Origin: an uncultured virus (IMG/VR IMGVR_UViG_3300028173_000008)
Lineage: Duplodnaviria > Heunggongvirae > Uroviricota > Caudoviricetes
DNA length: 64,000 nucleotides
Direction: 5' to 3' (one strand)
IMG/VR virus record: IMGVR_UViG_3300028173_000008
Positions 4,812-45,234 of this stretch are shown piece after piece (the stretch's first letter is position 1; each line of letters opens with the position of its first letter). Under the pieces are notes generated by a model, which did no database searches, was not told the origin of the DNA, and saw only the letters and a list, made by a program, of their open reading frames with translations. The position numbers were made by a program, and so were the translations under genes.

Positions 4812-4879
4812 GGGAGTCAGGAGTCCCCACCTGCCTGTCACGCAGGAGATCCCGGGTTCAAATCCCGGTGGGACCGCCA
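4802..4879 (+). tRNA. tRNA-Asp(GTC), cassette cargo
   Basis: cloverleaf, CCA; ORF stop TAG = positions 8-10. Confidence 0.9.
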
Positions 4880-5050
4880 GAGGAAGCGGGTTCGAGTCCC
4901 GTCTATCCCGCCAATCGCCGGGGGTGAAACCCGGAGGAACACAGTGGAAGCAGCAGGCTCCCCCTCGGGGGAGGCCGTGCAAGCGTAACTCCTGCCGTGG
5001 AAGCTGTGGAAAACCGGGCGAATCCCCACTTGGGACCTTGTGGACACGCA

Positions 5051-5721: not shown

Positions 5722-5841
5722 CGAACAGTAGCTCAGTGTTGATGTACCCCCGCCAAGTTGCCGGTTGATGAAGCGGAAGGGCATCGATAGGGAGAGCGCC
5801 GGGACACTCGGAGGCCGCTGGTTCAAACCCAGCCTGTTCGA
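5722..5841 (+). ncRNA. tRNA-like RNA with ~53-nt D-loop hairpin insert and no anticodon loop
   Basis: CGAACAG/CTGTTCG acceptor, GCTC/GAGC D stem, CCGGG-ACA-CTCGG, GCTGG-TTCAAAC-CCAGC. Confidence 0.75.
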
Positions 5842-6361: not shown

Positions 6362-7162
6362 ATGAGCAAGATAGTAAAAGGCACCTCCCGGAGCGGTGTA
6401 GGAACTACGTTGGTGGTTCCGCAGCACCGGCTGGTGTTCGACATGGGGGCTCCCCTGGTGGAGTCCTTGGGCGTCCGTAAGGTGTTCATCACCCACGGGC
6501 ACATGGATCACGCAGGGGCTCTGGTGTTCCACGCCAGCACACGGGGAATGATGGGAATGGGGCCGCCCCTGTTCCACGTCCCGGCCTGGATGGAAGCCGA
6601 CCTTCGGGTGATACTGAAGGCCGCCGCCCGCCTCAACGGTGGGGGAGTCCAGTTCGACATGGTCCCCATGGAAGCGGGCAAGAGTCACGATCTGGGAGGG
6701 CCTCGCAGAGTGGTGCCCTTCTACACCGACCACCGGCTACCGTGCCTCGGCTACAAGGTCTACCAGACCCGAAACAAGCTCCGGGATGAGTTCATAGGAC
6801 TTCCCGGAGAGGAGATCGGGCGGCTTCGGAAGGGTGGAACGGAAGTCACCCGTGAGGTAGAAGCCTTGGCACACACGCACGTAGGGGACAGCCGGGTGAC
6901 CGTGCTGGACAAACACCCCGAGGTGTTCCAGTCAGATGTGCTGGTGCTGGAGTGTACGTTCGTGGGCGACTACTCCTTGGAGGAGACCCACAGGCGGGGA
7001 CACACGCACCTGTCCGAACTGGCGGAACGTGCGGAACTGTTCAAGGACGTGAAGGCCGTTGTCCTGACACACTTCTCGATGCGACACAGCGAGAAGGAGG
7101 TCAAGGCGGAGGTCGCCAAGCTCCCCGAGTCCCTTCGGGACAAGATCCACCTCGTTTTCTAG
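6362..7162 (+). CDS. rnz: ribonuclease Z (MBL fold)
   Basis: FITHGHMDH, GDS, LECTF, RGHTH, LTHFSMRH, short exosite. Confidence 0.85.
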   Translation: MSKIVKGTSRSGVGTTLVVPQHRLVFDMGAPLVESLGVRKVFITHGHMDHAGALVFHASTRGMMGMGPPLFHVPAWMEADLRVILKAAARLNGGGVQFDMVPMEAGKSHDLGGPRRVVPFYTDHRLPCLGYKVYQTRNKLRDEFIGLPGEEIGRLRKGGTEVTREVEALAHTHVGDSRVTVLDKHPEVFQSDVLVLECTFVGDYSLEETHRRGHTHLSELAERAELFKDVKAVVLTHFSMRHSEKEVKAEVAKLPESLRDKIHLVF

Positions 7163-7246: not shown

Positions 7247-7828
7247 ATGGGACGAAAGAGCCACATCTGGGACACACCCCCGGAACGCTTCCGCCAACTG
7301 GTACACACCCACACCACATGGAAAGGGCTCGCATTAGCCCTTGGGATGTCGATCTGTGGGGGGACATTCAAGACCATCCGTAAAAGGATCCAGCAAGATG
7401 GGTTGGACGATCATCATTTGCGAGAGGGGGCCTCAAAACGAGGTGGCCTTTTGGCCGCTAAGAAACAGGAGCAGCCCCTTTCAGAGATCATGGTGAAAGA
7501 TTCTTCCTACTCACGGTACCACCTAAAGGCCCGTCTACTGCGAGACAGGGTGTTGGAAAACAAGTGTGCCATGTGCGGTCTCGATCCTGTTTGGGAAGGA
7601 GATCCCCTCGTGATGGTTCTTGACCACATAAACGGGGAACCCCAAGACCACCGGGCAGGGAATCTGAGGTTGGTCTGCCCCAACTGCAACTCACAGCTTC
7701 CAACCTTTGCAGGTCGGAAAACGAAAAAGGGCGAGGTTCTTTGTGTGGACTGCGGGACACCCATCCACACAAGAAGTACCAGATGTCGTTCATGTAGCGG
7801 CAGGCATCGTTATTTTACTGGGGAGTAA
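7247..7828 (+). CDS. HNH endonuclease
   Basis: CAMCG..LDHING..D.R..NLRLVCPNCNSQ. Confidence 0.9.
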   Translation: MGRKSHIWDTPPERFRQLVHTHTTWKGLALALGMSICGGTFKTIRKRIQQDGLDDHHLREGASKRGGLLAAKKQEQPLSEIMVKDSSYSRYHLKARLLRDRVLENKCAMCGLDPVWEGDPLVMVLDHINGEPQDHRAGNLRLVCPNCNSQLPTFAGRKTKKGEVLCVDCGTPIHTRSTRCRSCSGRHRYFTGE

Positions 7829-7891
7829 CTCAACTGGCAGAGTGCCGTCCTCTGAAGGCGGATGTTGTGGGTTCGAGTCCCACCTCCCCAG
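7819..7891 (+). tRNA. tRNA-Gln(CTG), cassette cargo
   Basis: cloverleaf; ORF stop TAA = positions 8-10. Confidence 0.9.
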
Positions 7892-7962
7892 CCCATAGGT
7901 TGAAGGTTCAAGTCCTTCTGCCCCAGCTATGGCGGGACGCACAGGCAGTGCAGGCCGTCTAA

Positions 7963-8035
7963 CGCAGTGTAGCTCAACAGGTAGAGCGCTGGTCTCATAA
8001 GCCGGAGGTTCCCGGTTCAATTCCGGGCACTGCGA
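7963..8035 (+). tRNA. tRNA-Met(CAT)
   Basis: cloverleaf. Confidence 0.85.
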
Positions 8036-12658: not shown

Positions 12659-12898
12659 ATGCCGGATCTACCCTACGTGATGCTCACTGGACTCATCCTC
12701 ATGCTGGTCGGTGTTCCCCTCTGGATGTACCGCTCAGAGAAGAAGAAGGTGGAGGCCGGGTGTTGCGGGAAGCCGTGGATCTCCTACTGCCGTGACTCAC
12801 AGGGCGGCATCGGCTTGAACTGTCAGGAGTGCGACAACGGCACTTGGGTATCCTACTACCGCAAGGGCTTCGTTGAGGGCGAACAGCAACCATTCTAG
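12659..12898 (+). CDS. small membrane-anchored protein
   Basis: GGAGG RBS, N-terminal TM. Confidence 0.6.
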   Translation: MPDLPYVMLTGLILMLVGVPLWMYRSEKKKVEAGCCGKPWISYCRDSQGGIGLNCQECDNGTWVSYYRKGFVEGEQQPF

Positions 12899-12968
12899 GC
12901 TCGTAGCTCAGTGGGAGAGCGCCTGCTTCACACGCAGGAAGTCCCCGGTTCAAAACCGGGCGGGCCTA
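12897..12968 (+). tRNA. tRNA-Val(CAC)
   Basis: cloverleaf. Confidence 0.9.
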
Positions 12969-25894: not shown

Positions 25895-26095
25895 TCACCT
25901 CTGCTTGAAGGCTCTGCCCTTACCGCACAGGAACAGGAAGGTGTCCCCGTCCCGTTCTTGGATCATCAGGTCGAAGTGCAGAGCCAACTCCTCGATCTCG
26001 TGGTACTCAAAGCTCACGTACCCCTCACGGGGCGGAGCCTTCGGGTGGCCCTTCACCTCGGGCCACATCACGACTTTCAGACTGATGTCGTTCAT
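25895..26095 (-). CDS. hypothetical protein
   Basis: start overlaps rtcB stop (TAATG). Confidence 0.55.
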   Translation of the reverse strand: MNDISLKVVMWPEVKGHPKAPPREGYVSFEYHEIEELALHFDLMIQERDGDTFLFLCGKGRAFKQR

Positions 26096-27507
26096 TACTC
26101 CAGCCCCTTGAGGTTGGCGACCGGGAACAGGCGCAGGGTCATCTTGGCGATGCCCTCGTCCTCCAACACCCGGAGCACAGCGTTGAGATCCTTGTAGGCG
26201 TGGCCGCACTCGTCCAGCGGCGTCCGCTCCGAGTTCATGACGATGCCCTCGACGATGGTTCCGTCCGCGCAGACGACACGGGCGTCCCGCATCTCCTCGT
26301 CGATCTCATCGTGGATTGCCCGAAGCTCACGCTTGGCCTCCCCACGTCCCATGAGCCGTCCGGCCCCGTGGTTGACGGAGCAGCCCGTCTTCCTCGTCCC
26401 GGAGAGCGGGAACAGGATCGCAGCCCCGTCCTTCATGGAACCGGGGATCAAGCACGGGTGGCCCGTCTCAGCCCACTTCGTGCGGGCGAGATCCGGGTGT
26501 CCAGCCGGGAAGGCACGGGTCGCCCCCTTGCGGTGAACGAAGCCCTCCGTCAGCGAACCGTCCGGCAGGTAGATGCGCTCCTGCTGGATCAGGTTGTGGC
26601 TGATCTCGTACAGGGTCTCAGACTCAGCCCCTCCGAACACCGTCGCCGTGGCGTCCGCCAGCCCTCTGGCTATGACGTGCCTGTTGGCGATGGCGTAGTT
26701 GGCCGCCGAGTTGTGGTGCGCCCAATACTCCTTCCCGAGATCCTCGTCCATGCGGAGGTAGGACTCCTCCCGTCGCTTGGACTGGAGGCACCGCAATCGG
26801 GCACCCTCGTAGAAGTAGTGGTTGGCCGTGTGCCACCCGTACCCACGGGAGCCGCAGTGCAGCATCAGCCAGACAGAGGAGTCCGTCGGGTCTACCTGCA
26901 TCTCGATGAAGTGGTTCCCACCACCGAGGGATCCCATCTGCGGGACGGCCTTCGGCCACGCCCGGTCGATGCGGTTGGCCTTGAAGTGCGCCGTGTCCAC
27001 ACGCATGAAGACACGCTCGCACTCGTCCGCCGTGACACCCACCGGCTCTCCGCCGTGGGCAAGCATCTCCTGCACGTCCGTCCACCCGTAGGTCGGCATC
27101 TTGACCGGACGGTGCGAACCGAGGCCCGTGGCTACACGCTCCTCAACCGCATGAATCCACTCCAGCCGCTTGGCCGGATCGACGATGTCCGCCGCCTTGA
27201 GGCTCGTCTTCATGTAGAGGACGCCGCACGAGATGTCGTAGCCGGAGCCTGACTGGACCAGCGTGTCGTCGGTCACGATGACGCTGCCGATGGGAACCCC
27301 GAACCCGAAGTGGGTGTCCGGCATCAGGAAGGCGTGAGTCACACCCTTGTAGGATGCGGCCTGTACAGCCTGTGCCCAGAGCCCCTCTTCGGTGGCCTCC
27401 CATAGTTCCTTGGTGAGGAAAGCTGTGACGTCGCACCGCATCCCGGCCCGTGCGGGCAGGACACAGCAGTTGTCAGTCAGCCAGTGGATGTCGTACTTGT
27501 GAGACAT
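26095..27507 (-). CDS. rtcB: RNA 2',3'-cyclic phosphate ligase RtcB
   Basis: MPDTHFGFGVPIG, GYDISCG, LGGGNHFIE, HCGSRG, HN, HRKGAT, HGAGR, DE..HAYKD. Confidence 0.95.
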   Translation of the reverse strand: MSHKYDIHWLTDNCCVLPARAGMRCDVTAFLTKELWEATEEGLWAQAVQAASYKGVTHAFLMPDTHFGFGVPIGSVIVTDDTLVQSGSGYDISCGVLYMKTSLKAADIVDPAKRLEWIHAVEERVATGLGSHRPVKMPTYGWTDVQEMLAHGGEPVGVTADECERVFMRVDTAHFKANRIDRAWPKAVPQMGSLGGGNHFIEMQVDPTDSSVWLMLHCGSRGYGWHTANHYFYEGARLRCLQSKRREESYLRMDEDLGKEYWAHHNSAANYAIANRHVIARGLADATATVFGGAESETLYEISHNLIQQERIYLPDGSLTEGFVHRKGATRAFPAGHPDLARTKWAETGHPCLIPGSMKDGAAILFPLSGTRKTGCSVNHGAGRLMGRGEAKRELRAIHDEIDEEMRDARVVCADGTIVEGIVMNSERTPLDECGHAYKDLNAVLRVLEDEGIAKMTLRLFPVANLKGLE

Positions 27508-36582: not shown

Positions 36583-36853
36583 GTTCCCGATGAACAAGTT
36601 CCCCAAGCTCTCTCAGGCCGAACTGATGATGGGGCTGCGGAACTGGGAGGATCTGGACGGGGCCGCCTACCTGTTGGGCAGGTCGATGGGGATGTTTGAT
36701 CCCGACGCCAGCTTCCAGACCGACCTGAAGTGGGTCTTCTGGTCCGCCAACCCGACCGGCGACTTCCTGTACCACATGATCTGTGGCCTTGTTGCGATGG
36801 GGATCTGGGAGCAGGACGAGGAAGGGGACAAGGTACGGTGGCACCATGACTGA
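36575..36853 (+). CDS. hypothetical protein
   Basis: ORF in operon. Confidence 0.55.
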   Translation: MLEFPMNKFPKLSQAELMMGLRNWEDLDGAAYLLGRSMGMFDPDASFQTDLKWVFWSANPTGDFLYHMICGLVAMGIWEQDEEGDKVRWHHD

Positions 36854-37259
36854 TCGAGGCTGGCCGAAACAGATCATCATCCTCCGCACCGACCTCGGCA
36901 TGCGGAAGGGCAAGATGGTCGCACAGGGAGCGCACGCCTCCTTGGGCGGGATTCTGGATCACTGCACAGAGGTCGGGGACGGCACCTTCGTGATCGGCCC
37001 CGGACACACAGGGTGGAATTGGGAAGCCGTCAAGCTGTGGCTCTCCGGCAAGTTCACCAAGATCGTGGTCGGGGTGGAGACCGAGCAGGAACTCCTCGAC
37101 CTATACGGTACGGCCCTGCGGGCCGGGATCGCCTGTTTCCTCTGCACCGACGCCGGGGACACTGAGTTCCACGGCGTACCTACGAACACTGCGGTCTGCA
37201 TCGGGCCGGATTTTCCAGACGTGATCGACCCTATCACCGGCCACTTGAGGCTCCTCTAA
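36846..37259 (+). CDS. pth2: peptidyl-tRNA hydrolase Pth2
   Basis: KQIIILRTDLGMRKGKMVAQGAHAS, KIVV, DAGDTE, IGP, ITGHLRLL. Confidence 0.92.
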   Translation: MTDRGWPKQIIILRTDLGMRKGKMVAQGAHASLGGILDHCTEVGDGTFVIGPGHTGWNWEAVKLWLSGKFTKIVVGVETEQELLDLYGTALRAGIACFLCTDAGDTEFHGVPTNTAVCIGPDFPDVIDPITGHLRLL

Positions 37260-39373: not shown

Positions 39374-39697
39374 ATGTCCAAGTTCACCGTCGACTGTTTC
39401 ACCGAGAAGTCACTCCCGGAGCCGGGGTTCCCTGAGAACACCTACGAGGCGGCCACCGTGCTGGAGGCTGCGGCTGTTGTCCATAACTGCACCCGCAAGC
39501 AGGCCGGGATCAGGATGGTTCAGATCTGGATCGAAGAGCCGGACGACCGAGAGGCCGTCGACACGCTCAAGACGTGCCGGTGTGGGACGAAGGGATGCGA
39601 TACAAAGCGCATTGACCCTGACGAGGTAGCGAAGGCGCTGGGGGCGGAGAAGGCCGTGAAGCCGAAGAACCTGCCCCGCAGGCCGGGGACACGGTAG
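39374..39697 (+). CDS. hypothetical protein
   Basis: GGAGG RBS. Confidence 0.6.
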   Translation: MSKFTVDCFTEKSLPEPGFPENTYEAATVLEAAAVVHNCTRKQAGIRMVQIWIEEPDDREAVDTLKTCRCGTKGCDTKRIDPDEVAKALGAEKAVKPKNLPRRPGTR

Positions 39698-39784
39698 GCG
39701 GAAGCGGAGGGAGTCGAACCCTCAAGGCCGTAAAGCTCGCCTGTTTTCAAGACAGGTGCCGTCGCCACGTCGGCTGGCGCTTCC
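39697..39784 (-). tRNA. tRNA-Ser(TGA)
   Basis: cloverleaf, long variable arm. Confidence 0.9.
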
Positions 39785-39806
39785 AAGTTGAACAGTAGGT
39801 CTTCGT

Positions 39807-39897
39807 TGGCGGAAGGAGGGGGAGTCGAACCCCCAAGGCGCTCATCACGCTCGACCACTTTCCAAGCGGCTGCCATCACCAATTGGCTTGCCCTTCC
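39807..39897 (-). tRNA. tRNA-Ser(GGA)
   Basis: cloverleaf, CCA. Confidence 0.9.
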
Positions 39898-39901
39898 AAA
39901 G

Positions 39902-39988
39902 TGCGACCGGAGGGATTCGAACCCTCACGCCAGTCATTGTTGACACTGGCCCCTCAAGCCAGCGCGTCTACCATTCCGCCACGGTCGC
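39902..39988 (-). tRNA. tRNA-Leu(GAG)
   Basis: cloverleaf. Confidence 0.9.
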
Positions 39989-39993
39989 ATGAG

Positions 39994-40075
39994 TGCTGCC
40001 GGTGGGACTCGAACCCACACACCTCAAGGGCACGGGCCTCTCAGACCCGCATGTCTACCATTCCATCACGACAGC
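39994..40075 (-). tRNA. tRNA-Leu(GAG)
   Basis: cloverleaf. Confidence 0.88.
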
Positions 40076-40078
40076 ATA

Positions 40079-40200
40079 GAAAGCACCCCAGCACGTAGGG
40101 AACCACGGGTTGGTTACCGCTGGCCGCCCACTCCTCCCAGAAGTGCTGCTTCTCTGTGGTCTTGGACACCCCTGATCTACAGCCCCGGCTGGGGTGCCTT
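40079..40200 (-). ncRNA. unassigned ~120 nt hairpin RNA
   Basis: GGCACCCCAGC/GCTGGGGTGCT closing stem. Confidence 0.45.
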
Positions 40201-40290
40201 TGGCGGAAGGACGGGGAGTCGAACCCCGAAGGCCGGTTAAGGCTCGCTGGTTTTCGAAACCAGTGCAGTCGCCCATCTGCTTGCCCTTCC
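40201..40290 (-). tRNA. tRNA-Ser(CGA)
   Basis: cloverleaf, CCA. Confidence 0.9.
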
Positions 40291-40291
40291 A

Positions 40292-40367
40292 TGGAGCGCT
40301 CGCCCGGACTTGAACCGGGGACCACCGGCTTCGGAGGCCGGGACTCTATCCACTGAGCTACGAGCGC
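40292..40367 (-). tRNA. tRNA-Arg(CCG)
   Basis: cloverleaf, CCA. Confidence 0.92.
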
Positions 40368-40370
40368 AAA

Positions 40371-40523
40371 GGTGGGGGAGGTAGGAATCGAACCTACAAT
40401 GCCCTCTCGGGCGGTCTGCTTTACAGGCAGATGTCTATACCTTGCTGAAGTCGCAACAGAGTTCCCGACCGGGGTCAGGATAAGGTCGTCACAACGAGTA
40501 GCGTGACTTTTGACCACTCCCCC
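40371..40523 (-). tRNA. tRNA-Tyr(GTA) with ~68-nt structured D-loop insertion
   Basis: GGGGGAG/CTCCCCC acceptor, TCTGC-CTGTAAA-GCAGA, variable arm, T arm; insert 40442-40509. Confidence 0.8.
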
Positions 40524-40527
40524 ATAG

Positions 40528-40600
40528 AGCCAACGACGGGAATCGAACCCGTAACCCCTTGCTTACCATGCAAGTGCTCTACCGTTGGAGCTACGTTGGC
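40528..40600 (-). tRNA. tRNA-Thr(GGT)
   Basis: cloverleaf. Confidence 0.92.
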
Positions 40601-40618
40601 ATGCTTGAATCAGACAAG

Positions 40619-40690
40619 AGCCCAGTACCGGAGTCGAACCGATGTCAGCGGGTTACAAATCCGCTGCTCTGCCACTTGAGCTAACTGGGC
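40619..40690 (-). tRNA. tRNA-Thr(TGT)
   Basis: cloverleaf. Confidence 0.88.
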
Positions 40691-40723
40691 AAATCAGGTG
40701 CTCTACCGTTGAGCCACGCTAGC
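40691..40723 (-). pseudogene. orphan 5' half of a Thr-type tRNA
   Basis: GCTAGCG-TG-GCTCAACGGTAGAGC-A-CCTGA-TTT fused directly to tRNA-Thr(TGT). Confidence 0.75.
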
Positions 40724-40727
40724 AAAG

Positions 40728-40799
40728 AGCCGAAGGTCGGAATCGAACCGACAACCTGCCGCTTACGAAACGGCTGCTCTACCATTGAGCTACATCGGC
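40728..40799 (-). tRNA. tRNA-Thr(CGT)
   Basis: cloverleaf. Confidence 0.9.
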
Positions 40800-40854
40800 A
40801 AAGTGCGACCGGGGGGAGTCGAACCCCCACGCCTCAAAGGCACCGGATTCTAAG

Positions 40855-40934
40855 TGGCTGAGGTGGGAGTCGAACCCACACGCCCTAAGCGCCCGCCTCT
40901 AAAACGGGTGCGTCTACCGTTCCGCCACTCAGCC
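40855..40934 (-). tRNA. tRNA-Leu(TAG), cassette cargo
   Basis: cloverleaf; ORF stop TGA inside acceptor strand. Confidence 0.88.
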
Positions 40935-41429
40935 TTTTTCTTGTTTGGTCACGGAGGTCAACCCTTTGCTATTACACCACCCAGGTTGTTGGGAGTGGCA
41001 GTTAGGGCACAGGAATCGTAAGTTTTCAGGGCGGTTGTCTAACCAGTCTCGGTTGATGTGGTCCACCTGTAGCATGAGGGGTTTCCCGACCCACACTCCC
41101 TCGATCCCACAAGATTCGCACGCATAGGGCCGCCCACTGTCAAGGAGAGCCCTCCGTAAGCGGTACGCTGCGGTACGCCTCCCTGTGTCCTTCTTTGACA
41201 GGGTAGTTAGCCACGGAGTCTTTCCCGGGCCTCCCTTATGGGCTGTTCCCTTGTTGGATCCTTGACCGTGGAAATGGACTGTGTCGAGTCCGTATTCCCG
41301 TACCTTACGGGTGATGTGCGTTTGTGTCCCGCCCGCCTGTTTCACCCCCAAATCTCGAAGCACGCCCGCCATGGAAGTGTTCTGTTGAACAAGTGGGGCT
41401 AGGATCTCTTTTGTGTAACGTCGTCCCAT
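40929..41429 (-). CDS. HNH endonuclease
   Basis: CESCG..LQVDHINRDWLDNRPENLRFLCPNCHSQ. Confidence 0.9.
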   Translation of the reverse strand: MGRRYTKEILAPLVQQNTSMAGVLRDLGVKQAGGTQTHITRKVREYGLDTVHFHGQGSNKGTAHKGGPGKTPWLTTLSKKDTGRRTAAYRLRRALLDSGRPYACESCGIEGVWVGKPLMLQVDHINRDWLDNRPENLRFLCPNCHSQQPGWCNSKGLTSVTKQEKG

Positions 41430-41496
41430 ACACAGCTTACGGTATAGGCTAGCAACCGGAACCGGCGTGTCTACCGTTTCACCACGGTCGCAAAGG

Positions 41497-42341
41497 ATGA
41501 CCACCCGTAGCCGGGATCCTGTTTTATGGACACATTCATCTAGTGGCCCCTACCCGTCCGCATAGCGCTGCTCACCCGCTCTTGGCCCAACCCCGATGCC
41601 GAGAGCGTTGCCCTGAAAAGAGCTTCTGCATTCCTTGGCGTGTAAGGCCGTGACGTTGGCAGAACAGATTGAGGGACGGGGTCACTTCGTGTTCAGCCCC
41701 GTCAGGAGAACGGACTTTGGGGTAGGGCTGCTTCTTCTTAGTGCGGCTGATCGCCGCCTTTTCCGCTTCCGTTGGGGAAGCCTTCCGACCACCCGATCCC
41801 ACAGCGTTCTTATTGCCCCGCTGCAAAAGTGACAGGGCTTGCTTCGTTTCTTCTGTATGCTTGTAACCCAGGCTGTTGCCTGCTTCTGGGAGGATGTTGT
41901 ACTTCTTGGCTTTCGGGGTCTTGTCCAACCACTCCTGTTCCTTCTCCAAGAGCTTGTCGTGGGCCGCCTGAACAAGCACAAAGAAGCAAATGTCCTCTTC
42001 ACCCCTCTTGGCAAAGGCTCGTTGTAAGGGGGTGTTATGGTGGGTGCCTTTTCGAAGAAGCCTCCCATGTGCTGAGAACCTCTTGTAGAGATCCACTGCG
42101 GACCCGATGTAGAGCTTCCCCGAAGCCCTACTTCTGATGGCATAGACACCGCTCTTACCGTGTAGCGCAGAATAAGGGGTACCTTTCATGGAAGGGTCCA
42201 ATTTCATAGGCCAAAGATACCACGTTCCTGTTTGGGTTGCACCCTCGGAAGTGCGAACGGCCTACGGCCTCCTTCCTTCAGCAGTGGTGTCCCGAGCTTC
42301 CTCACATCCCTTGCGGGGTAGTGCGTGCCCTCAGTGGTCAT
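41497..42341 (-). ncRNA. rnpB: RNase P RNA (reduced), interrupted by GIY-YIG ORF
   Basis: P1 ATGACCAC/GTGGTCAT; P2 GGGCAC/GTGTCC; P4 GAGGA-AGC(U)CGGGA / ACAGGA-TCCCGGCT with bulged U; CGGGTAGG L15-like; CTAGATGAATG. Confidence 0.8.
41572..42207 (-). CDS. GIY-YIG homing endonuclease with NUMOD3-like motif
   Basis: SGVYAI..YIGSA..KRF..H, EKEQ.WLD, YN, HTEETK. Confidence 0.9.
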   Translation of the reverse strand: MKLDPSMKGTPYSALHGKSGVYAIRSRASGKLYIGSAVDLYKRFSAHGRLLRKGTHHNTPLQRAFAKRGEEDICFFVLVQAAHDKLLEKEQEWLDKTPKAKKYNILPEAGNSLGYKHTEETKQALSLLQRGNKNAVGSGGRKASPTEAEKAAISRTKKKQPYPKVRSPDGAEHEVTPSLNLFCQRHGLTRQGMQKLFSGQRSRHRGWAKSG

Positions 42342-42425
42342 GGTGCCAGAGGGGGGACTCGAACCCCCACGCCTCAAGGACAGACGGTTTTGAACCGACC
42401 GCGTCTACCATTCCGCCACTCTGGC
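42341..42425 (-). tRNA. tRNA-Leu(CAA)
   Basis: cloverleaf, CCA. Confidence 0.88.
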
Positions 42426-42433
42426 AAGTAAGT

Positions 42434-42522
42434 TGGTGGAGGAGGTGGGATTCGAACCCACTCACCGCAACGCGGACCAGATTTACAGTCTGGCGTGACT
42501 CTCCAACTTCAACCGCTCCTCC
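42434..42522 (-). tRNA. tRNA-Tyr(GTA)
   Basis: cloverleaf, CCA. Confidence 0.85.
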
Positions 42523-42526
42523 AAAG

Positions 42527-42598
42527 TGGAAAGGGGTGGAATCGAACCACCGACACGGGGATTTTCAGTCCCCTGCTCTACCTCTGAGCTACCCCTCC
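42527..42598 (-). tRNA. tRNA-Phe(GAA)
   Basis: cloverleaf. Confidence 0.9.
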
Positions 42599-42999
42599 AT
42601 GCGTTTCCAGTCCCCGAACTCCTCCTTGCCGCCCCTGCACCCCCAGTCCGAGTCGATGACCAGGCGGGACGAGATCCCGCCACGGGGCCGGAGGTCCGCT
42701 ACGAGGCGCAACCGGGCCGGTTCATAGACCGCCACGAGATCCTCGTAGATGACGTTGATGAGGCGTTCGTAGGAGATCACCTTGGACCTGAAGGCCACCA
42801 CGTACTCCTTGAGTGCCTTCAGTTCGATGATCCAGTCCGCCGGGTAGAAGACCAACGTCAGGTGACCGAAGTCCGGTTGCTGTTTGACGCCCATGAACGT
42901 CAACTCCGGGATCTCCATCCTGATCTCGTACCCGTCTGGGTCGGGGTTCGGCAGCCTCTTCAGCTTGTCCTTCTCCGACCACTTGTCATGCTTGCCCAT
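42589..42999 (-). CDS. queF: QueF-like T-fold protein lacking the catalytic Cys
   Basis: PELTFMGVKQQPDF, IELKALKEY, SYE, PRGGI. Confidence 0.8.
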   Translation of the reverse strand: MGKHDKWSEKDKLKRLPNPDPDGYEIRMEIPELTFMGVKQQPDFGHLTLVFYPADWIIELKALKEYVVAFRSKVISYERLINVIYEDLVAVYEPARLRLVADLRPRGGISSRLVIDSDWGCRGGKEEFGDWKRMEG

Positions 43000-43038
43000 G
43001 TCGTTCCCCCTTGTTGTCCGGGGAACTATACCGATCAG

Positions 43039-43112
43039 TGCCAAGGGGCGGGATCGAACCGCCGACACCCCGGATTTCACCCGAGTGCTCTACCTACCTG
43101 AGCTACCTTGGC
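43039..43112 (-). tRNA. tRNA-Phe(GAA)
   Basis: cloverleaf. Confidence 0.88.
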
Positions 43113-43116
43113 AGAA

Positions 43117-43190
43117 GGCAGAGGTAGTGGGAATCGAACCCACCCGACGGTCGGTTTTGGAGACCAACCCGCTTACCCAGAGCCACCTCT
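43117..43190 (-). tRNA. tRNA-Trp(CCA), short D arm
   Basis: AGAGGTG/TACCTCT, TTGGT-CTCCAAA-ACCGA. Confidence 0.75.
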
Positions 43191-43224
43191 ACAAGAATGT
43201 GCGGGGAATCGAACCGGGGCTTTG

Positions 43225-43680
43225 CTAGCGAATGAACTTGAGGGCTTGGGCGTTGACCATCTTCAGGATGTCACGGGGGGACATGGAGGCGAAGGAGGTC
43301 ATCGACATGGAGTGCGTGCTGGTTTCCTCGTCCTCGATCCCCTTTTCCTCTACATAGACGAACACCCACCACTGTACCTGGTTGCGTTGGAAGTCGGGGG
43401 TGAAGTACGCGATGACGTGGTCCTCACCCGGAGTCGAGGACTGGCTGGGGGAGGGGAGATTCGGGAAAGCGATCTCCACAGTCATCCCCTTCCTGTAAAT
43501 CTCGCCCACATGGTCGGCCTGCGTGGCCTTGCCGACCTTCTTCATCCACTGGAAGAATGCCTTGTGGAACAGACCGATAAGGTCACCCGTTGCCGCCTCT
43601 TTCCGCAGAAGGGGCAGGATGTGCTTGCGGGTTTCAGGTACTTCATGGGCCAGTCTGACCAGTTCGCTTTTAAGATCCAT
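43225..43680 (-). CDS. hypothetical (virion-type N-terminus LVRLAHEVPETRKHILPLLRKEAA)
   Basis: GGAGG RBS. Confidence 0.7.
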   Translation of the reverse strand: MDLKSELVRLAHEVPETRKHILPLLRKEAATGDLIGLFHKAFFQWMKKVGKATQADHVGEIYRKGMTVEIAFPNLPSPSQSSTPGEDHVIAYFTPDFQRNQVQWWVFVYVEEKGIEDEETSTHSMSMTSFASMSPRDILKMVNAQALKFIR

Positions 43681-43722
43681 GGGGTCCTCCTGTGTCCCTA
43701 ATGGAACCTTATAGCCCAAGTA

Positions 43723-43778
43723 GGTGCCAGAGGGGGGACTCGAACCCCCACGCCTCAAGGACAGACGGTTTTGAACCG
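43723..43778. repeat. 56-bp exact direct repeat of 42342-42397
   Basis: GGTGCCAGAGGGGGGACTC...TTTTGAACCG. Confidence 0.9.
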
Positions 43779-43807
43779 GATGCGGCTACCAGTTACGCCA
43801 TCCCGGC
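43723..43807 (-). pseudogene. chimeric tRNA-Leu
   Basis: 3' 56 nt identical to 42342-42397; 5' half does not pair properly with it. Confidence 0.75.
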
Positions 43808-43816
43808 GTATGAAAG

Positions 43817-43902
43817 TGGATGATCAAGGAATCGAACCTTGCTGCCGCGTCAGCGGACCGGGGTTACAGCCCAGCGCAAGCACCAGCTTGACCGTATCAT
43901 CC
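43817..43902 (-). tRNA. tRNA-Tyr(GTA)
   Basis: cloverleaf, atypical D arm. Confidence 0.75.
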
Positions 43903-43905
43903 AGA

Positions 43906-43994
43906 GGCGGAGGGAGAGGGAGTCGAACCCTCAAGGCCGATTAAGGCTCGTCCGGTTAGCAACCGGGTGCAGTCACCGATCTGCTTGCCCCTCC
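43906..43994 (-). tRNA. tRNA-Ser(GCT)
   Basis: cloverleaf. Confidence 0.9.
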
Positions 43995-44005
43995 GTGAAT
44001 TGGAC

Positions 44006-44115
44006 CGGGTCGCTCTTATCGTCTTCCTGGGGCGTTGCCACCCCGCAGACGTTTATCCACGACCAACCGCTGTACAAGCGGCTGCGCTATCCCCCGAGGG
44101 GGAGCCCAACGACCC
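44006..44115 (-). ncRNA. unassigned multibranch RNA
   Basis: GGGTCGTT/AGCGACCC closing stem; CCCCC-tc-GGGGG, CCGCT-tgtac-AGCGG and GGGGTG-gcaa-CGCCCC hairpins. Confidence 0.45.
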
Positions 44116-44119
44116 AAAG

Positions 44120-44202
44120 TGCTGCTGAAAGGAGTCGAACCTTCACGCCCCGAAGGACACTTGGACCTGAACCAAGCGCGTCTACCATTCCGCCACAGCA
44201 GC
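44120..44202 (-). tRNA. tRNA-Leu(CAG)
   Basis: cloverleaf. Confidence 0.92.
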
Positions 44203-44246
44203 AAAGAACGGTGCTGGAAGCTGGGCAACTCCCAGCACCGAAGACC

Positions 44247-44296
44247 TACTATTCAATTGTCAAAGACCCTCTGGCCGCCGCCCTGTGGCAGAGGCC
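44247..44296 (-). promoter_or_regulatory. boxB-like hairpin + boxA
   Basis: GGTCTTTGACAATTGAATAGTA, 21/22 identical to 1993-2014. Confidence 0.75.
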
Positions 44297-44304
44297 CTAA
44301 ACGC

Positions 44305-44338
44305 AAAAAGCCCGCTCCGGGTGTGTCCGGGCGGGCTT
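44305..44338 (-). terminator. intrinsic terminator (attenuator)
   Basis: AAGCCCGCCCGG-acacac-CCGGAGCGGGCTT-TTT. Confidence 0.85.
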
Positions 44339-44360
44339 CCAAGGTCAGCAGATGTTGTGC

Positions 44361-44459
44361 TTACCCCGTTACACCCTCCGGCGCACTCGTGGACAGATAC
44401 GACCAGCCGGTAAGGCTGACGTGCGTCCGCAAGCTGAAGGTTGTAAATAAGGTCTGCAT
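44361..44459 (-). CDS. 32-aa leader peptide (putative attenuator) MQTLFTTFSLRTHVSLTGWSYLSTSAPEGVTG
   Basis: AGGAG RBS, just after promoter, terminator ~22 nt after stop. Confidence 0.78.
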   Translation of the reverse strand: MQTLFTTFSLRTHVSLTGWSYLSTSAPEGVTG

Positions 44460-44483
44460 CTCGGTCTCTCCTGTTCGCCCCTG

Positions 44484-44512
44484 ACGCTAGAGGCCCTTTG
44501 GGCTCCTGTCAA
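44484..44512 (-). promoter_or_regulatory. sigma70-type promoter of - tRNA operon
   Basis: TTGACA-17-TAGCGT. Confidence 0.65.
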
Positions 44513-44554
44513 GGCTTTTCTCACGAAGATCCCCACAGGGGGGCTTCACGTCCG

Positions 44555-44582
44555 TCCACACAGAACAGGAAGGGCCTAAGCC
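44555..44582 (-). promoter_or_regulatory. phage promoter motif GGCTTAG-N14-GTGTGGA
   Basis: motif copy. Confidence 0.65.
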
Positions 44583-44634
44583 CCTTGCCGGTAGATTCGT
44601 TATGAGGCTACTCCAGTAGGACATGGAGGCCCGC

Positions 44635-45234
44635 ATGAGCAAGCACACGAACCGGGTAGCAGCCCGGTATATTAAGAGAGCCGCCAGCGAAGACCGCAAA
44701 CAGTTCGACATGGGCGTCAAGGCCATCGGGACATCGCTCCTGCGGATGAAGGACGTGGTCTTCCTCTGGACAGGGAGGGGAACACCCCCTCCGGGACACG
44801 GGGCAGAGGGCTACGAGTCCCTGGCTGACGTGTACGGCCCTGTGCAGCATGTCGTGAACAAGATCGAGGACCTTGAGAAAGCCTACATCAGCCTCAAGCG
44901 TGTTCGTGTGGCCTCCAAGCGGATGGACCCCAAGTTCAAGCGGGCCGTCATTCCGTTGTTCAAGCGGGCAGGCCTGGATGGCAACGGGCGGTTCAGGAAG
45001 CCCCAACACGGGTACTCCAAGGCGTTGGACATCCTCGCCAAGTTCGAGATCGAACTGGACGACGTCGTGTCGTCCCACCTGTTCAACGGGGACAGCGGGA
45101 CGATCCGGGCGGACCTGGCCTATTCGAACTCAGAGGACCCGTTCTCCCCTGAGTCGATTTCCAACTCGGTGCTGGTCATTTCGTTCACTAAGATGGCCAA
45201 GGACAGCTATGAGGTGCTGGCGTATCTGTCATGA
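44635..45234 (+). CDS. hypothetical (virion-type RVAARY motif)
   Basis: GGAGG RBS. Confidence 0.7.
   Translation: MSKHTNRVAARYIKRAASEDRKQFDMGVKAIGTSLLRMKDVVFLWTGRGTPPPGHGAEGYESLADVYGPVQHVVNKIEDLEKAYISLKRVRVASKRMDPKFKRAVIPLFKRAGLDGNGRFRKPQHGYSKALDILAKFEIELDDVVSSHLFNGDSGTIRADLAYSNSEDPFSPESISNSVLVISFTKMAKDSYEVLAYLS

What the first reader, a model, noticed from the sequence alone, without database searches (positions are those of the whole stretch)
40371..40523. tRNA-Tyr with a ~68-nt structured domain in the D loop
All four stems are intact. The insert is closed by AAGTC/GACTT and holds the hairpins GTCAC..GTGAC and TCCTGACC-cc-GGTCGGGA. It could be a non-canonical intron (RtcB is encoded) or a permanent extra domain. 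Two ordinary Tyr tRNAs are also present, so it may be specialised.
Basis: seen in the sequence. Interest (0 to 1): 0.7.

Follow-up and report, generated by a model that had tools for sequence, protein, structure and literature searches.

The report
Phage tyrosine tRNA with oversized D-loop
A giant bacterial virus carries a tyrosine tRNA gene that is textbook-perfect except for about 65 extra bases in one corner loop; it is most likely an uncut tRNA look-alike, but with no diverged relatives or RNA reads a broken gene or a new kind of intron cannot be excluded.

Summary
The gene is real, on the minus strand (40523 to 40371), inside a jumbo-phage tRNA array. All 20 core pairs are Watson-Crick, every bacterial tRNA-Tyr determinant is present, and 67 nt lie where 1-3 normally separate position 15 from G18G19. 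Only identical copies were found (4 records), so covariation is untestable; RNA contigs miss the gene. No strict bulge-helix-bulge, Rfam intron or ribozyme match, or splicing endonuclease was found (fragment about 20% complete); one relaxed motif arises in 5.6% of shuffles. The phage has a second tRNA-like RNA with an insert at the same site and no anticodon, and T4 species 1 RNA has this layout. Best reading (0.42): an unspliced, probably chargeable tRNA-Tyr mimic. Rivals: recent insertion relic 0.27, novel intron sealed by RtcB 0.18, working as is 0.10. The scan noted the same 153 nt before in another assembly (e1-6018332).

The parts
40517..40523 (-). acceptor stem 5' strand (tRNA positions 1-7; G1)
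   Evidence: 7 of 7 Watson-Crick pairs with 40374-40380
40512..40516 (-). U8, G9 and D-stem 5' strand (10-12)
   Evidence: 3 of 3 Watson-Crick pairs with 40433-40435
40509..40511 (-). A13, A14, A15; A15 is the expected Levitt partner of U48
   Evidence: in the window's 51 ARAGORN tRNAs U48 goes with A15 in 21 of 21 cases and G15-U48 never occurs
40442..40508 (-). 67-nt D-loop expansion in place of positions 16-17; two or three hairpins, or one long irregular rod, at nearly equal energy
   Evidence: three-hairpin fold -54.8, rod -54.7 kcal/mol with the cloverleaf enforced
40488..40507 (-). hairpin H1 (5-6 bp); in the MFE it extends by taking the D-stem 5' strand (nt 9-12 with 37-40)
   Evidence: pair probability 1.0 for H1 and 0.99 for the extension
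40463..40480 (-). hairpin H2 (7 bp, 4-nt loop), present in every fold tested
   Evidence: pair probability 0.87-1.0; all folds
40443..40458 (-). hairpin H3 (5 bp, 6-nt loop), weak
   Evidence: pair probability about 0.56
40433..40441 (-). G18 G19, rest of the D loop and D-stem 3' strand
40415..40431 (-). anticodon arm, 5 Watson-Crick pairs, C32 U33 G34 U35 A36 A37 A38 (anticodon at 40422-40424)
40398..40414 (-). long variable arm (4 bp, GAGA loop) ending in U48
   Evidence: pair probability 1.0
40381..40397 (-). T arm, 5 Watson-Crick pairs, canonical loop
40371..40380 (-). acceptor 3' strand, discriminator A73, then CC (CCA not fully encoded)
5722..5841 (+). second tRNA-like RNA of the same phage: 53-nt hairpin between position 15 and G18, G15-C48 kept, anticodon loop collapsed to 3 nt
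42434..42522 (-). tRNA-Tyr(GUA) found by ARAGORN; C8, A48, irregular D stem
43817..43902 (-). third Tyr(GUA) gene; A8, 5-bp D stem with UGGU loop, missed by ARAGORN and Rfam
26095..27507 (-). RtcB RNA ligase (context; 13 kb away)
   Evidence: Pfam PF01139 E 8.5e-86

Best explanation
An unspliced, about 150-nt tRNA-Tyr look-alike. It is transcribed within the minus-strand tRNA array and cut out by the ordinary tRNA end-processing enzymes (inferred from its place, 3 nt from each neighbour). The cloverleaf core folds, and the 67 nt hang off D-loop positions 16-17 as a permanent domain (inferred). Host TyrRS, which reads G1-C72, A73, the anticodon and the variable arm, can probably charge it (determinants shown; charging inferred). 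The bulk next to the elbow makes passage through the ribosome unlikely (inferred), so it would act outside decoding: a stand-in that binds tRNA-Tyr-reading host factors such as an anti-phage tRNA nuclease, TyrRS or a modification enzyme while the phage's two core-remodelled Tyr tRNAs decode. Which partner it serves is not shown.
For: All 20 core pairs Watson-Crick, U8, A14, A15-U48, G18G19 and the T loop kept; only 9 of 51 window tRNAs have all 17 acceptor, anticodon and T pairs Watson-Crick. The insert sits at the one D-loop site whose length varies, whereas the endonuclease cassettes beside it break genes in the anticodon loop (HNH). The same phage has a second RNA with an insert at this site that cannot decode, so splicing it would yield nothing usable. 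T4 species 1 RNA has an acceptor, a T arm and a roughly 60-nt hairpin 5' of a D-loop GG; 728 of 751 matching phage records cover at least 80% of it and 11 of 46 pairs show two-sided changes across three genera. A related phage carries a Tyr-like gene with G33 and a roughly 60-nt variable-region expansion beside a normal Tyr gene (L022). tRNA-Tyr is a target of anti-phage defence (PMC11555353 passages).
Against: No diverged homologue in any scan, so selection on the insert is not shown. The insert is not more structured than shuffles (78 of 1000), unlike the T4 insert (5 of 1000); the second phage RNA's insert is also weak (89 of 1000). The MFE breaks the D stem (0.99 for nt 9-12 with 37-40), though shuffled inserts mostly do so too (median D-stem probability 0.002). 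T4 species 1 RNA has lost its anticodon arm and pairs its insert tip with that loop; no such pairing here (5 bp, reached by 542 of 1000 shuffles). T5 rescue from retron-Eco7 needed a tRNA-Tyr presumed to translate, and purified PtuAB neither cut nor bound tRNA-Tyr in vitro (PMC12819146 passages), which weakens a PtuAB-decoy version. No expression data for this gene.
Confidence: 0.42

Rival explanations
1. A recently inactivated gene: 65 nt of foreign or duplicated DNA landed in the D loop of a normal tRNA-Tyr, the gene became dispensable because two other Tyr(GUA) genes exist, and it has not had time to decay.
For: Only identical copies exist (4 records); absent from the two related records G001 and G002 as far as they reach; insert no better folded than shuffles; the array is full of broken tRNA halves and endonuclease genes; strains differ at 30 sites in 64 kb, too few to test conservation over 153 nt.
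Against: No source for the insert in the 107-kb genome (best BLAST hits 13-16 nt, E 0.19 or worse), among plasmids or phages; no target duplication at its ends, and the internal 12-nt repeat is not significant (95 of 1000); the site is the tolerant 16-17 position, shared with a second RNA of this phage and with T4 species 1 RNA; no mismatch in 20 core pairs.
Confidence: 0.27
2. A true D-loop intron. A phage-encoded (or host) metal-independent endonuclease cuts after nt 14 and nt 77 at a bulge-helix-loop-like motif, and the phage RtcB joins the halves to give a working tRNA-Tyr.
For: Removing the insert gives a textbook tRNA-Tyr, more canonical than the phage's other two Tyr genes. One cut pair (14/15 and 77/78) has a 4/4 central helix (D-stem 5' strand with nt 72-75), a 3-nt bulge and a 2-bp outer helix, and leaves A at position 15; this meets the 'four central pairs plus one flanking helix' metric used for Asgard D-arm introns (10.64898/2026.10.13.758758 passages). 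RtcB is encoded. Lak megaphages have unexplained tRNA introns, one in tRNA-Tyr(GUA) (PMC6784885 passages and Table S6).
Against: 0 of 19 cut pairs give a strict BHB, 1 of 19 a relaxed one, which 278 of 5000 shuffles match. That fold costs 12 kcal/mol over the MFE, opens acceptor pair 7-66 and has probability 0.0. It leaves 4 nt between position 15 and G18, seen in 0 of 51 window tRNAs. No EndA domain in G000 or five other fragments, though G000 is about 20% complete. The 14 Lak introns with coordinates start at positions 37-41, none in the D loop. Phage RtcB is explained by tRNA repair. The host is bacterial by the phage's tmRNA and long-arm G1-C72 Tyr; that bacteria lack EndA is recalled.
Confidence: 0.18
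3. A translating tRNA that keeps the insert: the domain points away from the elbow face, shields the tRNA from a host nuclease and still passes through the ribosome.
For: All decoding and charging elements are intact; the phage uses UAC heavily (92 UAC against 4 UAU in 3993 codons of 8 ORFs); all three Tyr genes have remodelled D arms, as if under pressure to differ from the host form.
Against: The ribosome contacts the elbow in all three tRNA sites (PMC4810234, start of abstract only), and bacterial tRNA size is standardised by shared machinery (PMC5389517 passage); I found no paper on a translating tRNA with such a D-loop domain; the MFE breaks the D stem.
Confidence: 0.1

Closest known systems
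Phage T4 species 1 RNA (rnaC; GenBank AF158101 misc_RNA 70908-71046)
   Same: Stable small RNA inside a phage tRNA cluster (annotation); acceptor-like stem, canonical T arm, and a roughly 60-nt structured segment 5' of a D-loop GG (my mapping); similar total size (140 against 153 nt).
   Different: T4's insert is one long hairpin, well folded (z -3.4) and nearly invariant across genera; its anticodon arm is replaced by a 10-bp hairpin whose loop matches the insert tip, and its acceptor has two U-U pairs. Here the anticodon arm and all Tyr determinants are intact, the insert is weakly folded, and there is no sense-strand sequence similarity (score 11). Its cleavage by RNase III is recalled, not seen in a call.
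Bacterial class II tRNA-Tyr(GUA) (Rfam RF00005)
   Same: G1-C72, A73, GUA, long variable arm, U8, A14, G18G19, T loop.
   Different: 67 nt instead of 1-3 between positions 15 and 18; not detected by RF00005 or ARAGORN.
Non-canonical BHB introns in the D arm of archaeal tRNAs (Thermoproteales, Asgard archaea)
   Same: Intervening sequence in the D arm; one relaxed motif with the D-stem 5' strand as central helix.
   Different: No strict BHB; three times the median length reported there (22-23 nt); no EndA found; bacterial host.
Enigmatic tRNA introns of Lak megaphages (PMC6784885)
   Same: Megaphage tRNA genes, including tRNA-Tyr(GUA), interrupted by 23-141-nt sequences of no known intron class.
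   Different: Those start at positions 37-41, not in the D loop (14 of 14 with coordinates); their splicing is not shown in the passages I read.
Bacterial Y RNAs (YrlA) that mimic tRNA
   Same: tRNA-like non-coding RNA near RNA-repair genes (PMC4201824, start of abstract only).
   Different: No TROVE/Ro60 gene in the fragment, no Rfam match; this gene has an open acceptor end and a real anticodon.

Membership tests
Bacterial tRNA-Tyr | G1-C72, A73, GUA anticodon, long variable arm | tested here: met
   determinants from PMC1934993 passages
Bacterial tRNA-Tyr | conserved core: U8, A14, 15-48 pair, G18G19, T loop | tested here: met
Bacterial tRNA-Tyr | D loop of normal size (1-3 nt between 15 and 18) | tested here: not met
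   67 nt; 48 of 51 window tRNAs have 1-3
Bacterial tRNA-Tyr | charged and used in translation | not testable with these tools
   needs an assay
Archaeal-type BHB tRNA intron | strict bulge-helix-bulge at both junctions | tested here: not met
   0 of 19 cut pairs
Archaeal-type BHB tRNA intron | central helix plus one flanking helix (hBH or HBh') | tested here: inconclusive
   1 of 19 cut pairs; 278 of 5000 shuffles; fold probability 0.0; leaves an oversize loop
Archaeal-type BHB tRNA intron | EndA splicing endonuclease available | tested here: inconclusive
   PF01974 absent from G000 and 5 other fragments; G000 about 20% complete
Archaeal-type BHB tRNA intron | ligated exons in RNA | tested here: inconclusive
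   no RNA contig covers the gene
Group I / group II intron or small self-cleaving ribozyme | match to an Rfam model of these classes; size of a catalytic core | tested here: not met
   no such match at E up to 10; 65 nt is below group I and II sizes (recalled)
T4 species 1 RNA (rnaC) | tRNA ends with a structured insert 5' of the D-loop GG | tested here: met
   against 59, 99
T4 species 1 RNA (rnaC) | conserved insert sequence | tested here: not met
   best sense-strand local score 11; no T4-like hit covering the insert among the 20 rows listed
T4 species 1 RNA (rnaC) | non-decoding anticodon arm whose loop matches the insert tip | tested here: not met
   intact 7-nt GUA loop; best pairing 5 bp, chance level
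Lak-type enigmatic phage tRNA intron | position at or next to 37/38 | tested here: not met
   insert is in the D loop; Lak positions 37-41
Conserved structured RNA family | covariation among diverged homologues | tested here: inconclusive
   only identical copies found

The most novel reading that the evidence does not exclude
A bacteriophage tRNA-Tyr whose D-loop intron is cut out by a protein endonuclease at an archaeal-like bulge-helix motif and sealed by the phage's own RtcB: protein-based tRNA splicing at a non-canonical site inside a bacterial cell, giving the phage a tRNA-Tyr that matures only when its own enzymes are present.
Probability: 0.15. Interest if true: 0.88.

Novelty: new variant of a known kind. 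Interest (0 to 1): 0.47.

Why it matters
tRNA-shaped RNAs with a D-loop domain have sat unexplained in phage tRNA clusters since T4 species 1 RNA. The two examined here (T4's, and this phage's 5722-5841 RNA) have lost decoding. This one keeps a complete Tyr identity, so it can be assayed with standard tools (charging, suppression, nuclease competition) and may be the intermediate between a working tRNA and such mimics. If it is spliced instead, bacteria infected by this phage would host protein-based tRNA splicing. If it is a relic, it only shows that tRNA finders miss such genes. It is a single sequence without relatives, which limits its present weight.

Tried and rejected
Homologue searches: exact 3' motif in viral contigs, 2 loci, both identical; Tyr-with-long-D-loop patterns in viral contigs, 16, 24 and 12 loci, of which 2, 2 and 0 were this gene and none a diverged D-loop-insert Tyr (inspected in 22, 31, 32, 60); metagenomes 17 loci, 2 identical; genomes 14 loci, none a tRNA; insert motif 2 loci, the same two contigs. 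These patterns need a GUC/GAC or RGY/GRC D stem, GG at positions 1-2 and an exact CUGUAAA loop, so relatives with other stems are missed; inserts over 90 nt were not scanned. BLASTN against cultured phages: 0 of 263 matching records cover 80% of the query; insert against plasmids: none. Related phages via the neighbouring hydrolase: 2 non-identical records (55% and 52%), none via GroEL, none cultured. Records G001-G005 scanned for unannotated T arms: no D-loop-insert Tyr (G003 lacks its last 1.7 kb and G004 is complete; G003-G005 were picked for odd Tyr genes and are not shown to be related). RNA: 4 runs, all contigs; X1 holds 239 nt of the phage tmRNA and two 151-nt pieces at 40910-41298, but nothing covers 40371-40523 and no joint lies there; this is no evidence either way. 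No sigma-70 promoter-like site in 39400-44700 (0 found, 1.1 expected). No TyrRS or TROVE in the fragments; 46 + 32 selected ORFs scanned in Pfam gave no splicing endonuclease (short ORFs and overlapping frames were left out). Internal direct repeat (95 of 1000 shuffles), pairing of the insert with the anticodon loop and a REP-like origin of hairpin H2 (7 copies of the 9-mer in the genome) were rejected as chance. A 17-nt gapped antisense match between nt 10-29 and the invariant core of T4 rnaC (1 of 2000 shuffles) was spotted after the fact, includes tRNA-body bases and is on the wrong strand for homology; I treat it as unexplained chance. My first constrained folds had an off-by-one acceptor and were redone. 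Paper searches for a phage D-loop insert found no description; the old T4 species 1 papers are not in the library, and supplements of the bioRxiv preprint could not be seen.

Full report
Setting. The window lies in a 106,830-nt linear virus record judged about 20% complete, 62% G+C. It holds 51 ARAGORN tRNAs and a tmRNA, a GOLLD RNA, RtcB, Pth2, a QueF-like protein, an RNase Z-like hydrolase below cut-off, and HNH, GIY-YIG and PD-(D/E)XK endonuclease genes among the tRNAs. The finding lies on the minus strand, between tRNA-Thr(GGU) and tRNA-Arg(CCG), 3 nt from each.

The observation. Read from 40523 down to 40371 the 153 nt give a 7-bp acceptor stem, 3-bp D stem, 5-bp anticodon stem with a CUGUAAA loop, a 4-bp variable arm and a 5-bp T arm, all Watson-Crick, with A73. 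G1-C72, A73, the anticodon and the long variable arm are the bacterial Tyr determinants (PMC1934993, passages). Only 1 of 213,630 positions in the genome fits as a 5' partner, the real one, so the frame is not chance. ARAGORN and Rfam miss it; after in-silico D-loop deletions ARAGORN calls a tRNA in 129 of 135 variants. Four records hold the gene, all identical over it, so it is not a one-off assembly error, though they need not be independent. The window differs from the laid genome at 30 sites, none in the gene; at that density this says nothing about conservation.

Where the insert lies. Position 48 is U. In the window's 51 tRNAs U48 goes with A15 in 21 of 21 cases and never with G15. A13 A14 A15 on the 5' side therefore fit as the native loop, and 67 nt (40508-40442) stand where 48 of 51 tRNAs have 1-3. 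One alternative, an insert starting after A14 with nt 78 as A15, also keeps this pair.

The insert's fold. The closing-helix fold is -49.2 kcal/mol; the MFE is -61.3; with the cloverleaf enforced the best fold is -57.2, and three-hairpin and rod folds tie at -54.8 and -54.7. Only H2 is common to all. The MFE lets nt 9-12 pair with 37-40, breaking the D stem (probability 0.99), but shuffled inserts also leave the 3-bp D stem mostly unpaired in this model (median 0.002), so this is a weak objection. The whole gene has z -3.51; the insert alone z -1.52, 78 of 1000, and 72 of 500 insert shuffles fold the gene as well. 'Structured domain' is thus plausible but not shown.

The other Tyr genes. 42434-42522 has C8 and A48; 43817-43902 has A8 and a 5-bp D stem with a UGGU loop. 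Similar long-D-stem Tyr genes occur in other viral contigs (L005, L013). The gene with the insert has the most canonical core of the three, which counts for the intron reading and also fits an ancestral gene displaced by variants.

Intron tests. Rfam gives no intron or ribozyme at E up to 10. Of 19 cut pairs that leave A14, purine 15 and 1-4 nt before G18, none forms a strict BHB and one (14/15, 77/78) forms a central helix plus a 2-bp outer helix; 278 of 5000 shuffled inserts do as well. That class is the metric used for Asgard D-arm introns (10.64898/2026.10.13.758758, passages), so I count it as a borderline signal. Against it: -48.9 kcal/mol, probability 0.0, acceptor pair 7-66 opened, and a product with 4 nt before G18, seen in 0 of 51 tRNAs. 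EndA is absent from G000 and five other fragments, which cannot exclude it from the unseen 80%. RtcB in jumbo phages is described as a tRNA repair ligase (PMC7824862, passages). Lak phage tRNA introns, one in tRNA-Tyr, start at 37-41 in all 14 Table S6 rows with coordinates, of 15 rows found (PMC6784885, passages and supplement).

Precedent for a permanent domain. T4 species 1 RNA is annotated as a small stable RNA in the tRNA cluster. By my mapping it has an acceptor-like stem, a roughly 60-nt hairpin 5' of a GG, a non-decoding arm and a T arm. It is widespread (728 of 751 matching records cover at least 80%) and shows two-sided changes in 11 of 46 pairs over three genera. It shares no sense-strand sequence with this insert. 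This phage's own 5722-5841 RNA has a 53-nt hairpin between G15 and G18, keeps G15-C48 and a perfect acceptor and T arm, and has a 3-nt anticodon loop; splicing would not make it a tRNA. A related phage (L022, 52% identity in the neighbouring hydrolase) has, beside a normal Tyr gene, a 133-nt Tyr-like gene with G33 and an expanded variable region. Other agents of this scan noted several D-loop-expanded phage tRNA look-alikes; I did not test those.

Relatives and expression. Seven collection scans by pattern, three by neighbouring proteins and BLAST searches found no diverged copy (limits under Tried and rejected). The related record G001 ends inside the cluster and has no match to the Tyr pattern; G002 has the syntenic Thr and Ser genes without this gene. 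RNA contigs do not cover it.

Mechanism. Shown: intact frame, Tyr identity, insert site, neighbours, RtcB. Inferred: co-transcription and end processing, folding of the core, charging, exclusion from the ribosome (the elbow is contacted in all three sites, PMC4810234, start of abstract), and a stand-in role. tRNA-Tyr is depleted by retron-Eco7 PtuAB and T5 phages answer with their own tRNA-Tyr (PMC11555353, passages), which gives a motive for three differently built Tyr genes; but that rescue was presumed to need translation, and PtuAB did not cut or bind tRNA-Tyr in vitro (PMC12819146, passages), so no partner can be named. I also read passages of PMC12445682, PMC5389517, PMC10690425 and PMC9693318; none described this architecture.

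Verdict. Unspliced Tyr mimic 0.42, recent relic 0.27, novel intron 0.18, translating as is 0.10. It works like T4 species 1 RNA in layout but fails membership on sequence and on the anticodon arm; it is not a member of any intron class tested. New variant of a known kind; interest 0.47, held down by being a singleton already noted once in this scan.

Noticed in passing
window 5722-5841 (+): tRNA-like RNA with perfect acceptor and T arms, 53-nt hairpin between G15 and G18 and a 3-nt anticodon loop; ARAGORN misreads it as Ser with an intron; no full-length match among cultured phages.
   Followed up: partly
window 43817-43902 (-): Tyr(GUA) gene with A8, 5-bp D stem, UGGU loop and C38, missed by ARAGORN and Rfam; similar long-D-stem Tyr genes in L005 and L013.
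   Followed up: partly
   Followed up: partly
window 40690-40723 (-): Orphan 5' half of a tRNA ending in the anticodon loop, fused to the start of tRNA-Thr(UGU).
   Followed up: no
window 43762-43773: The Leu gene reads CAA in the window but UAA in the laid genome and two other assemblies; the window's version copies the Leu(CAA) gene at 42341. Other clustered differences at 1589-1656, 4879-4912, 6949-7039: strain recombination or assembly chimera.
   Followed up: partly
L022 about 7858-7994 (-): 133-nt Tyr-like gene (G33, GUA) with a roughly 60-nt variable-region expansion holding a small hairpin whose loop region is the complement of the normal Tyr anticodon loop.
   Followed up: partly
L108 about 12825-12925 (+): tRNA-Gly(GCC) frame with a hairpin of about 27 nt in the anticodon loop, like the Lak introns; also a 148-nt tRNA-framed RNA near L108 3047.
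   Followed up: no
L100 about 7590-7815 (-): 222-nt RNA framed by a Gly-like acceptor, D arm and T arm, with a large folded middle.
   Followed up: no
L012 about 500-600 on the locus (-); G005: Tyr(GUA) gene with almost no D arm and a long variable region.
   Followed up: no
window 40495-40514 against L066 (T4 rnaC): 17-nt gapped antisense match to the invariant core of T4 species 1 RNA, 1 of 2000 shuffles; found after the fact, no explanation.
   Followed up: partly
window 42589-43080 (-), 6362-7162 (+), 36783-37259 (+): QueF-II-type preQ1 synthase, RNase Z-like hydrolase and archaeal-type Pth2 inside or beside the tRNA arrays.
   Followed up: no
window 43995-44115 (-): Unannotated 120-nt multi-hairpin segment between Leu(CAG) and Ser(GCU), -54.5 kcal/mol, no shuffle control run.
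   Followed up: no
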